Position numbers and translations under genes: made by a program | Shown here: positions 1,184-1,253 of the stretch, one piece after another | How the letters are laid out: each line of letters starts with the position of its first letter | Position numbering within the stretch: the first letter of the stretch is position 1 | Notes under the pieces: generated by a model | Databases searched by the model: none | What the model saw: only the letters and a program-made list of their open reading frames with translations | Told to the model about the DNA's origin: nothing | Assembly: GCF_003334815.1 (NCBI RefSeq) | Contig: NZ_QOWO01000095.1 | Source: Escherichia coli | GTDB taxonomy: Bacteria > Pseudomonadota > Gammaproteobacteria > Enterobacterales > Enterobacteriaceae | Strand: one strand, 5' to 3' | DNA length: 1,721 nt

Positions 1184-1210
1184 GATATTTTGTGGCTCAG
1201 TTCTGTAACT

Positions 1211-1253
1211 TTTCCCGTAACATTGTCTGTTGTTACGGGAAAGTCCGGTTTTT
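1211..1253 (+). terminator. Putative intrinsic terminator for the upstream ORF: 12-bp perfect inverted repeat plus downstream T-tract
   Basis: TTTCCCGTAACA (1211-1222) and TGTTACGGGAAA (1231-1242) are exact reverse complements, separated by an 8-nt loop (ttgtctgt). The hairpin begins 28 nt after the ORF stop. A TTTTT run sits at 1249-1253, but 6 nt after the stem rather than directly against it, so the terminator call is tentative. Confidence 0.45.

What the first reader, a model, noticed from the sequence alone, without database searches (positions are those of the whole stretch)
1209..1253. Perfect 12-bp inverted repeat with 8-nt loop between the two genes: terminator or protein-binding palindrome
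An exact 12/12 palindrome is unlikely by chance in an intergenic region of this size. Its T-tract is offset by 6 nt (GTCCGG) from the stem, which is atypical for a canonical intrinsic terminator. Alternatives are a leaky or attenuating terminator that insulates the colicin promoter from read-through, a binding site for a dimeric regulator, or an RNA stability element at the 3' end of the upstream mRNA.
Basis: seen in the sequence. Interest (0 to 1): 0.3.

Follow-up and report, generated by a model that had tools for sequence, protein, structure and literature searches.

The report
Gene-end hairpin terminator after plasmid yagA
The perfect 12-bp palindrome is real, but it is most likely just the RNA hairpin that ends the upstream plasmid gene yagA (a probable, possibly leaky, transcription terminator and mRNA-end protector) just upstream of the colicin Ia/Ib promoter, so it is an ordinary feature.

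Summary
The window is the yagA–colicin Ia/Ib junction of IncI1 plasmids (ColIb-P9 / pCol1B9 type). The inverted repeat is exactly as described: arms 1211-1222 and 1231-1242, 12/12 complementary, 8-nt loop, then GTCCGG and T5 (1249-1253). It is not chance (0.14% of window shuffles) and folds at -17 to -18.5 kcal/mol. It lies 19-27 nt after the yagA stop, on the yagA strand. It travels with yagA, not with the colicin gene: three independent colicin contexts lack it. Its half-site recurs nowhere else on the plasmid and it has no Rfam match. Divergent yagA homologues carry unrelated hairpins at the same position. Natural variants keep or improve pairing: T1213C shifts the register with no loss of stability, and an added G gives a perfect 15-bp stem. 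The 6-nt offset is partly apparent, because local folding can extend the stem to G1248, directly against the U-run. That raises the tail score from -2.2 to a typical -5.1, but this extension is not better than shuffled controls. Best reading: the yagA 3'-end hairpin is a probable, perhaps leaky, intrinsic terminator and 3'-end protector. The main rival is Rho-dependent termination with a protective hairpin. A protein-binding palindrome is disfavoured. No 3'-end data exist. Low interest; new member of a known kind.

The parts
1..1183 (+). 3' part of yagA (448-aa protein of family PF27227 'Endonuc-like_C'; the gene starts upstream of the window; stop TGA 1181-1183)
   Evidence: Annotated as yagA in ColIb-P9 and about 1100 other plasmids; translation; family assignment; sense TSSs upstream of yagA in pCol1B9 at 6543 and 6634.
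1170..1186 (+). Small hairpin ATCTCAG-GTA-CTGAGAT overlapping the yagA stop codon, followed by ATTTTGTGG
   Evidence: Flagged as terminator-like by the consensus scan; -6.3 to -7.1 kcal/mol. A ribosome at the stop codon would cover it. Function not examined further.
1203..1209 (+). 5' strand of the possible lower stem: C1203-U-G1205 pairs with C1246-G-G1248; U1206/A1207 form an internal loop; A1208 and C1209 pair with U1244 and G1243
   Evidence: MFE of RNA ending at G1248 in all four haplotypes, pair probabilities 0.5-1.0. Not better than shuffled flanks (30% reach the observed value) and lost with longer upstream context.
1211..1222 (+). Left arm of the perfect inverted repeat, TTTCCCGTAACA
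   Evidence: T1213C is the only arm substitution seen in natural variants.
1223..1230 (+). Loop TTGTCTGT (8 nt), invariant in all haplotypes
1231..1242 (+). Right arm TGTTACGGGAAA
   Evidence: An extra G in the G-run in two metagenome contigs restores perfect pairing with the T1213C left arm. ISCro1 is inserted here in one plasmid lineage, with 8-bp duplication GTTGTTAC.
1243..1248 (+). GTCCGG: a 'spacer' in the literal reading, or the 3' strand of the lower stem in the extended fold
   Evidence: Invariant in all haplotypes and kept in IncF colicin plasmids that lack the left arm.
1249..1258 (+). U-run TTTTT followed by GTATT: the putative terminator U-tract and release region
   Evidence: Tail score is -5.09 if the stem ends at G1248, and -2.18 to -2.64 if it ends at 1242 or 1243.
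1334..1356 (+). Fur-box-like inverted repeat TTAATGATAATCACTATCATCAA upstream of the colicin promoter (context, not part of the hairpin)
   Evidence: Inverted repeat I9; coordinates. Fur and LexA control of the cib promoter is reported in PMC3879352. Assigning this exact stretch as the Fur box is my reading of the sequence.
1360..1395 (+). Colicin Ia/Ib promoter: -35 TTGACA (1360-1365), -10 TAAATT (1383-1388), TSS at about 1395
   Evidence: Consensus scan, 10 of 12 matches. Cappable-seq TSS at pCol1B9 8227 equals window 1395 (coordinate offset checked).
1393..1420 (+). Two overlapping LexA-box-like sequences, CTGTATATGTATCCAT and CCATATGCGTAAGCAG
   Evidence: Coordinates. LexA regulation is from PMC3879352. 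The exact box assignment is my reading of the sequence.
1462..1721 (+). Start of the colicin Ia/Ib gene (runs off the window)
   Evidence: Annotated colicin CDS starts at ColIb-P9 8294, which equals window 1462.

Best explanation
The palindrome acts as RNA: it is the 3'-end stem-loop of the yagA transcript. RNA polymerase coming from yagA transcribes the hairpin 19-27 nt after the stop codon. That is far enough for the hairpin to fold free of the terminating ribosome. The polymerase then reaches the U5 run at 1249-1253. The 12-13-bp core may be extended by A1208-U1244, C1209-G1243 and the 3-bp helix 1203-1205/1246-1248, so that the stem abuts the U-run. The hairpin then promotes factor-independent release in or just after the U-run. 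Because the lower stem is imperfect and the loop is long, termination is probably incomplete. The retained hairpin also protects the yagA mRNA 3' end from 3'-5' exonucleases. A consequence is that the Fur/LexA-controlled colicin promoter about 110 nt downstream is partly shielded from yagA read-through. Shown here: the repeat, its energy, its position and strand, its linkage to yagA, and pairing-preserving variants. Inferred: that transcripts end here, how efficiently, and the insulation effect.
For: The repeat is real and non-random. Hairpin energy is -17.2 to -18.7 kcal/mol, at the strong end of mapped terminators: medians are -13 to -17 and the E. coli first quartile is about -18.5 (PMC12207403). 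It lies on the yagA strand 19-27 nt after the stop, and a stop-to-terminator distance above about 27 nt gave full terminator function in PMC4824070. yagA has sense TSSs in pCol1B9. The consensus scan flags it as terminator-like. On the minus strand no U-run follows the hairpin, so it is directional. It travels with yagA or a yagA remnant and is absent or degenerate in three independent colicin contexts without yagA. Divergent yagA homologues carry unrelated hairpins of -17 to -19 kcal/mol within 1-30 nt of their stops, one with a classic GC stem, UUCG loop and U-rich 3' side. Natural variants preserve pairing. T1213C gives an isoenergetic 14-bp register (-18.1). T1213C plus an extra G gives a perfect 15-bp stem (-25.2). 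All 57 cells pair in that register, while sequence divergence in the hairpin is about 6%, as in its flanks. An extended fold to G1248 is the MFE in all haplotypes and gives a tail score of -5.09, typical for E. coli. There is no Rfam family, and no other copy of the half-site on the plasmid.
Against: No 3'-end mapping or read-through data were found, so termination is not demonstrated. For the literal 12-13-bp stem the U-run is offset by 5-6 GC-rich nt. The tail score is then -2.2 to -2.6, weaker than more than 75% of mapped E. coli terminators (third quartile -3.8). The lower-stem extension has probability about 0.5-0.7 only, is matched by 30% of shuffled 5' flanks, and disappears when more upstream sequence is folded. 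The loop is 8 nt against a median of 4. There is no classical two-sided covariation: 14 of 15 pairs never vary. The compensating G insertion is in a homopolymer and is seen only in two metagenome contigs, not in finished plasmids. A discriminant score recalled from memory, which I could not verify, is negative for the simple stem and positive only for the extended one.
Confidence: 0.6

Rival explanations
1. Rho-dependent ending with a protective or pausing hairpin. RNA polymerase reads through the hairpin, perhaps pausing at U1253/G1254 about 10-11 nt after the stem. Rho terminates diffusely further downstream, and 3'-5' exonucleases trim back to the hairpin, which then defines and stabilises the yagA mRNA 3' end.
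For: [quoted passage not shown] For the literal stem the tail is weak (-2.2 to -2.6). The homologue hairpin in L006 has no U-tract either. A C-rich, G-poor stretch exists at about 1300-1420.
Against: A U5 run does follow and can abut the stem in the extended fold. The 90 nt right after the hairpin show no C>G bias (C/G = 1.1). The C>G stretch further on coincides with the AT-rich colicin promoter. Only 278 nt of untranslated RNA are available before the colicin gene.
Confidence: 0.2
2. DNA-level palindrome: an operator for a dimeric DNA-binding protein (possibly the endonuclease-like YagA itself) or a recombination or cruciform site.
For: Perfect dyad symmetry, with half-site centres about 20 bp (two helical turns) apart. 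YagA has a predicted endonuclease-like C-terminal domain. One IS66-family insertion and two of three colicin-module breakpoints fall in or next to the palindrome.
Against: There is no second exact half-site or paired copy anywhere on the 93-kb plasmid. It is not at a promoter: about 110 nt upstream of the colicin -35 and about 1.4 kb downstream of the yagA start. YagA homologues have unrelated sequences at this position. The natural changes, one in each arm, restore complementarity rather than keep a recognition sequence. Full 12/12 complementarity is longer than typical half-sites. Other yagA truncation breakpoints lie elsewhere, so the clustering of breakpoints is post hoc and weak.
Confidence: 0.06
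3. The hairpin serves a minus-strand transcript: a 5'-proximal stem-loop of an antisense RNA that starts at window 1257-1260 and runs into the 3' end of yagA.
For: Cappable-seq lists minus-strand TSSs at pCol1B9 8089, 8090 and 8092 (window 1257-1260), with a plausible -10 TATTCT just upstream. The hairpin folds equally well on the minus strand.
Against: The same dataset reports 2417 TSSs on two plasmids, roughly one per 75 bp, without read counts in the table read, so any single TSS is weak evidence. The G.U pair 1210/1243 and the U.G pair in the lower helix are possible only on the + strand. The antisense ORF through the hairpin is not conserved.
Confidence: 0.05
4. There is no current function: a neutral palindrome hitch-hiking in a very young, nearly clonal plasmid backbone.
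For: About 1100 plasmids are at least 99% identical over the 151 nt, so invariance carries little information. The hairpin persists next to a 51-codon yagA remnant in some IncF plasmids. Colicin genes exist without it.
Against: A perfect 12-bp repeat is very improbable by chance. It sits exactly where gene-end hairpins are expected. In the one diverged lineage its pairing is kept or improved although its sequence changed as much as the flanks. Where the left arm is lost, the fold is no longer significant.
Confidence: 0.09

Closest known systems
Canonical intrinsic (Rho-independent) terminators of E. coli, as mapped by Term-seq (PMC12207403) and exemplified by lambda tR2 (PMC4824070)
   Same: It follows a stop codon on the same strand at a typical distance. 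Hairpin energy and stem length are in the normal range. A U5 run lies within 10 nt of the stem. GC-rich nucleotides (CCGG) come directly before the U-run. It is directional, with no U-run on the other strand.
   Different: The loop is 8 nt (median 4). The perfect stem is separated from the U-run by GTCCGG, and only an imperfect lower helix (a 2x1 internal loop plus one bulged or wobble position) brings the stem base to the U-run. The stem is A/U-rich at its base. Function is untested.
Protective 3' stem-loops of Rho-dependent transcripts (Dar & Sorek 2018, PMC6061677)
   Same: An energetically stable stem-loop just after a gene, without a U-tract immediately adjacent to the perfect stem. It could define a trimmed, stable 3' end.
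   Different: A U5 run is present 6 nt downstream. There is no C>G bias in the 90 nt that follow. Rho dependence is untested.
Unrelated hairpins downstream of yagA-family genes on other plasmids (L013, 59% identical protein; L006, 57%)
   Same: Same position (1-30 nt after the stop), same strand and similar energy (-17 to -19 kcal/mol).
   Different: There is no sequence similarity. L013 is a textbook terminator with a GC stem, a UUCG loop and an A-tract/U-tract, whereas L006 is AT-rich with no U-tract.
REP and other repeated extragenic palindromes
   Same: An intergenic palindrome that can stabilise upstream mRNA.
   Different: It is single-copy: one place per plasmid, median one per genome. 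It is not a repeat family.

Membership tests
Intrinsic (Rho-independent) terminator | Lies downstream of a transcribed gene, on the same strand, in non-coding sequence | tested here: met
   The stem starts 19-27 nt after the yagA stop at 1183. Sense TSSs are listed upstream of yagA in pCol1B9. The antisense ORF across it is spurious.
Intrinsic (Rho-independent) terminator | Stable stem-loop with a loop of about 3-13 nt | tested here: met
   -17.2 to -18.7 kcal/mol, a stem of 12-13 bp (up to 17 pairs when extended) and an 8-nt loop.
Intrinsic (Rho-independent) terminator | U-rich tract immediately after the base of the stem | tested here: inconclusive
   For the literal stem there is a 5-6 nt GC-rich gap and the tail score is -2.2 to -2.6, which does not meet the feature. 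For the extended fold to G1248 the tail score is -5.09, which does. The extension has probability 0.5-0.7, is no better than 30% of shuffled flanks and depends on context.
Intrinsic (Rho-independent) terminator | Base pairing maintained in evolution | tested here: met
   Four haplotypes: all 57 cells pair; one U.G to C-G change; one insertion fills a bulge; there are no two-sided substitutions. This is weak, because there are few variants and H3 comes only from metagenome contigs.
Intrinsic (Rho-independent) terminator | Transcript 3' ends in the U-tract; release by RNAP alone in vitro | not testable with these tools
   No 3'-end data were found for IncI1 plasmids. Only TSS data were available.
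Rho-dependent terminator with protective stem-loop | Stable stem-loop not followed by a U-rich sequence | tested here: inconclusive
   The stem-loop is present. The U5 run is 6 nt away, which is neither adjacent nor absent.
Rho-dependent terminator with protective stem-loop | C-rich, G-poor rut region immediately downstream | tested here: not met
   C/G = 1.1 over 1243-1330. C>G appears only at about 1300-1420, inside the colicin promoter.
Rho-dependent terminator with protective stem-loop | Read-through increases on Rho inhibition | not testable with these tools
   This needs bicyclomycin RNA-seq or a rho mutant.
Operator palindrome of a dimeric regulator | Site overlaps or adjoins a regulated promoter, or recurs at other targets | tested here: not met
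   About 110 nt upstream of the colicin -35. No other exact half-site and no paired near-matches on ColIb-P9. Absent from three colicin contexts.
Operator palindrome of a dimeric regulator | Matches a known transcription-factor motif | not tested
   No motif library was available. By eye it does not resemble the LexA or Fur boxes downstream.
Repeated extragenic palindromes (REP-like) | Many dispersed copies per replicon or genome | tested here: not met
   Single copy on the plasmid. Median of one place per E. coli genome that has it, nearly all on plasmids.
Any curated RNA family (Rfam 15) | Covariance-model match at or near the gathering score | tested here: not met
   Only chance-level hits (13-18 bits against gathering scores of 35-245).

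The most novel reading that the evidence does not exclude
The hairpin is more than a gene-end signal. It may be a two-strand element: one that ends yagA transcripts and also forms the 5' stem-loop of an antisense RNA starting at 1257-1260 that controls yagA. Or it may be a DNA hairpin or cruciform recognised by the endonuclease-like YagA, which would make the yagA-hairpin pair a small self-contained module and could explain why an IS insertion and module breakpoints cluster there.
Probability: 0.05. Interest if true: 0.4.

Novelty: new member of a known kind. Interest (0 to 1): 0.12.

Why it matters
If it terminates as proposed, it sets the 3' end and stability of the yagA mRNA. It would also keep the SOS- and iron-regulated colicin Ia/Ib promoter of a very widespread plasmid family (about 1100 sequenced IncI1 plasmids, and 942 of 5426 complete E. 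coli genomes) free of upstream read-through. That is useful for annotation and for designing colicin-promoter reporters, but it does not change how such elements are understood. Its modest general lesson is that an apparent spacer between a perfect stem and a U-run can be part of an imperfect lower stem, so an 'offset' terminator may be nearly canonical.

Tried and rejected
1. The Rfam search at a permissive E-value found nothing meaningful.
2. I searched ColIb-P9 for further copies of the half-site. It found only scattered 2-mismatch singles, mildly above chance in one half of the plasmid and not paired.
3. The first MFE extension, AACU 1207-1210 with GGUU 1247-1250, was rejected. It is energetically neutral and is broken by the natural A1207T change.
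4. I looked for intermediate yagA alleles to obtain covariation. The '80-90%' proteins turned out to be frameshifted assemblies (L012) or a truncated gene (L011).
5. The 144-aa antisense ORF through the hairpin is not conserved and is frameshifted in H3.
6. YagA searches against Pfam-A, NCBIfam, PADLOC, PHROGs and PDB sequences gave no hit. Only the precomputed PF27227 label was found.
7. Literature: Varley & Boulnois 1984 is not held. No paper was found that describes this hairpin or maps 3' ends on IncI1 plasmids.
8. I could not verify the d'Aubenton-Carafa discriminant formula in the library, so those d values are only indicative.
9. I considered sigma-54, TyrR and Xer-site resemblance by eye and saw no convincing match; this was not tool-tested.
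10. The IS2 insertion seen in some hits lies in the colicin promoter, not in the hairpin.

Full report
Where the window comes from. The 1721 bases match about 1340 plasmid records, mostly conjugative IncI1 plasmids of Escherichia, Salmonella and Shigella. In the reference plasmid ColIb-P9 (NC_002122.1) the window covers three things: the 3' three-quarters of yagA (a 448-aa protein), a 278-nt intergenic region, and the first 260 nt of the colicin Ia/Ib gene. Window position plus 6832 gives the ColIb-P9 and pCol1B9 coordinate. The yagA stop is TGA at 1181-1183 and the colicin ATG is at 1462.

The observation. The arms TTTCCCGTAACA (1211-1222) and TGTTACGGGAAA (1231-1242) are 12/12 complementary around the 8-nt loop TTGTCTGT. 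GTCCGG (1243-1248) and TTTTT (1249-1253) follow. A perfect repeat of this size with a 3-20 nt loop occurred in 0.14% of 5000 dinucleotide shuffles of the window and in 0.04% of shuffles of the intergenic region. The hairpin alone folds at -17.2 kcal/mol, or -18.1 with the U1210.G1243 pair. The 87-nt context has z = -4.3. It ranks about 25th among 1569 simple hairpins found on both strands of the 93-kb plasmid.

What it is not.
- Rfam has no family for it.
- The half-site has no other exact copy on ColIb-P9, and the 2-mismatch matches are isolated singles. It is one copy per plasmid and a median of one per genome, so it is not a repeat family and not a reiterated operator.
- A 144-aa ORF on the minus strand runs through it. 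Its start region varies non-synonymously, and one natural variant frameshifts it into a stop, so the hairpin is not coding.
- On the minus strand the hairpin folds equally well but is followed by AAGUUACAG, with no U-run. Any terminator function is therefore directional, for transcripts coming from yagA.

Which gene it belongs to. The hairpin travels with yagA, not with the colicin gene. Three independent arrangements carry the colicin Ia gene without yagA:
- In 18 IncF plasmids (L002 type) the left arm is missing and the right arm is degenerate, while GTCCGGTTTTTG and everything downstream are kept. The fold is no longer significant, z = -0.49.
- In L017 homology starts at window 1250.
- In L015 it starts at about 1318, directly after an exonuclease gene.

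Conversely, plasmids that have lost most of the colicin gene (matches ending at 1437 or 1478) keep yagA and the hairpin. So the colicin promoter does not need the hairpin, and the hairpin is a yagA 3'-flank feature.

Is a transcript there to be ended? Cappable-seq on Salmonella SL1344 pCol1B9 (PMC10268837, Table S1) lists sense TSSs at 6543 and 6634, which are 126 and 35 nt upstream of the yagA ATG. It also lists the colicin TSS at 8227 (window 1395), 7 nt after the -10 TAAATT. The same table lists a + TSS at window 1231, the first base of the right arm, and minus-strand TSSs at 1257-1260. However, the authors report 2417 TSSs on two plasmids, and no read counts are given in the table I read. 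Individual sites are therefore weak evidence. I found no 3'-end mapping for any IncI1 plasmid.

Comparative evidence. yagA encodes a member of PF27227 ('Endonuc-like_C'), which is widespread on enterobacterial plasmids. Identity drops from about 99% to about 59% with no true intermediates, because the apparent 80-90% proteins are assembly frameshifts or a truncation. Divergent homologues do not conserve the sequence:
- L013 (59% identity) has a textbook terminator 27 nt after its stop, AAACAAGCGCUC-UUCG-GGGCGCUUGUUU, at -17.7 kcal/mol.
- L006 (57%) has an AT-rich perfect 11-bp hairpin just after its stop.
- L008 runs straight into the next gene, and L007 and L009 are followed by iteron-like repeats next to rep genes.

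So an independent hairpin of similar strength at the same place is a recurrent feature of this gene family. That is what is expected of gene-end signals and not of a conserved protein site.

Variation within the IncI1 lineage. A metagenome scan with both flanks fixed and the hairpin left free returned 40 contigs. Of these, 35 carry the reference hairpin (H0). The variants are:
- H1: A1207T only.
- H2: A1207T plus T1213C. It is also present in two finished plasmids, including L010, whose YagA is 93% identical.
- H3: H2 plus one extra G in the right arm.

H2 folds in a shifted register as a 14-bp stem with one bulged C at -18.1 kcal/mol, essentially the same as H0 at -18.5. H3 is a perfect 15-bp stem at -25.2. 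In the H3 register all 57 sequence-by-pair cells form standard pairs: T1213C is a U.G to C-G change and the inserted G fills the bulge. Between H0 and the H2/H3 lineage the intergenic region differs at about 6% of positions, and the hairpin at about the same rate. So the sequence is not specially conserved, but pairing is. Matching changes in both arms are what a base-pairing constraint predicts, not what a protein recognition site predicts.

There are caveats. Only four haplotypes exist. There is no two-sided substitution. The G insertion is in a homopolymer, and it occurs only in two metagenome contigs from two assemblies, not in finished plasmids.

Is it a terminator? Benchmarks from Term-seq (PMC12207403) are as follows. 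Hairpin energies have medians of -13 to -17 kcal/mol, with an E. coli first quartile of about -18.5. The median loop is 4 nt. Tail scores have medians of -4.7 to -5.5, with an E. coli third quartile of -3.8. The distance from hairpin base to 3' end has a median of 5 nt in vivo and is 7-9 nt in vitro.

The hairpin energy and stem length are normal to strong, and the loop (8 nt) is long. For the literal 12- or 13-bp stem the tail score is -2.18 or -2.64, weaker than more than three quarters of mapped E. coli terminators.

However, when the nascent RNA is folded up to G1248, the MFE in all four haplotypes is an extended hairpin spanning 1203-1248. A1208-U1244 and C1209-G1243 extend the upper stem, with probabilities 0.7-1.0. 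A 3-bp lower helix, C1203-U-G1205 with C1246-G-G1248, closes it directly against U1249, with probabilities 0.5-0.7. In that fold the tail is UUUUUGUAUUGCACC, score -5.09, which is typical. The GC-rich CCGG sits where terminators usually have their GC peak. All natural variable positions are neutral or improving in this fold: 1207 lies in the internal loop. By contrast, the extension first suggested by the 87-nt MFE (AACU with GGUU) is broken by A1207T.

Two controls limit this claim. When the 5' flank is shuffled, 30% of shuffles pair G1248 at least as well. With more upstream sequence the MFE reverts to the simple hairpin. A hairpin-plus-tail discriminant that I recalled from memory, and could not verify, is negative for the simple stem (-17 to -25) and positive for the extended one (+15 for H0, +31 for H3). 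The simple consensus scan also lists the site as terminator-like.

The stop-to-hairpin distance of 19-27 nt is close to the more than 27 nt at which a ribosome at the stop codon no longer hindered lambda tR2 (PMC4824070).

Taken together, this looks like a functional but probably incomplete intrinsic terminator whose hairpin also protects the mRNA 3' end.

Main rival. [quoted passage not shown] They suggested mixed cases with weak intrinsic plus Rho termination. The literal geometry here would fit that, and U1253/G1254 lies 10-11 nt after the stem, which by my own knowledge is the spacing of hairpin-stabilised pauses. Against it, the 90 nt after the hairpin have no C>G bias (C/G = 1.1). The only C-rich, G-poor stretch is the colicin promoter itself. 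Sequence alone cannot separate these two models.

Other rivals. A protein-binding palindrome is disfavoured for the reasons given above. An antisense-RNA role rests only on unquantified TSS calls. A purely neutral palindrome is hard to square with its improbability, its position and the pairing-preserving variants.

Comparison with what is known, and novelty. Functionally and structurally this is a gene-end hairpin of the intrinsic-terminator or protective stem-loop kind. It meets the positional, energetic and weak evolutionary criteria. The adjacent-U-tract criterion is inconclusive, and the defining experimental criterion is untestable here. I found no earlier description of this particular hairpin: the literature on the cib promoter covers the Fur and LexA sites only (PMC3879352). 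It is therefore a new member of a known kind, of low general interest (0.12).

The most novel reading not excluded is a two-strand or YagA-recognised element. It has perhaps a 5% chance and would be moderately interesting.

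Noticed in passing
L003 3089-5790 (insertion point = window 1230-1237): An IS66-family element (ISCro1) is inserted inside the right arm of the hairpin, with an 8-bp target duplication GTTGTTAC. It separates yagA and the left arm from the right arm, U-run and colicin gene.
   Followed up: partly
L002 2990-3030 versus window 1203-1248: In 18 IncF colicin-Ia plasmids the left arm is replaced (GTGGCTGAGT-GCAAA-AACATTG). The orphan loop and right arm differ from the L010 allele at about 25% of positions, although the next ~230 nt are 97-99% identical. That is too many changes for simple drift, so a mosaic origin or an imprecise junction is possible. 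Unexplained.
   Followed up: partly
window 1219-1250 and about 1318: The left ends of homology in three independent colicin-gene contexts are at about 1219-1243 (L002), 1250 (L017) and about 1318 (L015). Two of the three fall in or at the hairpin. This may be chance, because other yagA truncations occur at 486, 713, 806 and about 1030.
   Followed up: partly
L014 about 1560-2890 (insertion point about window 1355-1360): An IS2-like (IS3 family) element is inserted between the Fur-box-like repeat and the -35 of the colicin promoter in some IncI plasmids. This should uncouple the promoter from Fur control or from upstream transcription.
   Followed up: no
window 1231 (+) and 1257-1260 (-); pCol1B9 8063 and 8089-8092: Published cappable-seq lists a sense TSS at the first base of the right arm. 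It also lists antisense TSSs just right of the U-run that would transcribe back through the hairpin into yagA. No read counts were available, and TSS calls are very dense on these plasmids.
   Followed up: partly
window 1170-1186: A second, small hairpin (7-bp stem, 3-nt loop, about -6.3 to -7.1 kcal/mol) overlaps the yagA stop codon and is followed by AUUUUGUGG. The consensus scan lists it as terminator-like. It could only fold when no ribosome sits on the stop codon.
   Followed up: no
window 1-1183; L001 2688-4034: YagA (448 aa) belongs to PF27227 'Endonuc-like_C' and has no hit in Pfam-A as searched here, NCBIfam, PADLOC, PHROGs or PDB sequences. By eye it has a Cys/His cluster near the N-terminus (CDC...HEH..EC) and a PD...E-x-M motif near the C-terminus. 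Homologues often sit next to plasmid replication genes, iterons and a small site-specific integrase.
   Followed up: partly
window 1334-1420: The colicin regulatory region is intact. It has a Fur-box-like repeat at 1334-1356, a -35 at 1360-1365, a -10 at 1383-1388 and a mapped TSS at about 1395. Two overlapping LexA-box-like sequences lie at 1393-1420. Minus-strand TSSs at 1380-1391 form a divergent pair with the colicin TSS.
   Followed up: partly
L016 8294-10174 (NC_017718.1): In the RefSeq record of SL1344 pCol1B9 the colicin CDS is annotated only from 8900, although the upstream sequence, including the ATG at 8294, matches ColIb-P9. This may be an annotation problem or a frameshift in that record.
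   Followed up: no
window 893-1327, minus strand: A 144-aa ORF antisense to the yagA 3' end spans the hairpin. It is not conserved, with a variable start and a frameshift in haplotype H3, and is judged spurious.
   Followed up: yes
window 1437 and 1478: Many IncI1 plasmids without a colicin gene still keep yagA, the hairpin, the whole colicin promoter and the first codons of the colicin gene. Homology ends at 1437 or 1478, which indicates deletion of the colicin/immunity module from a ColIb-like ancestor.
   Followed up: no
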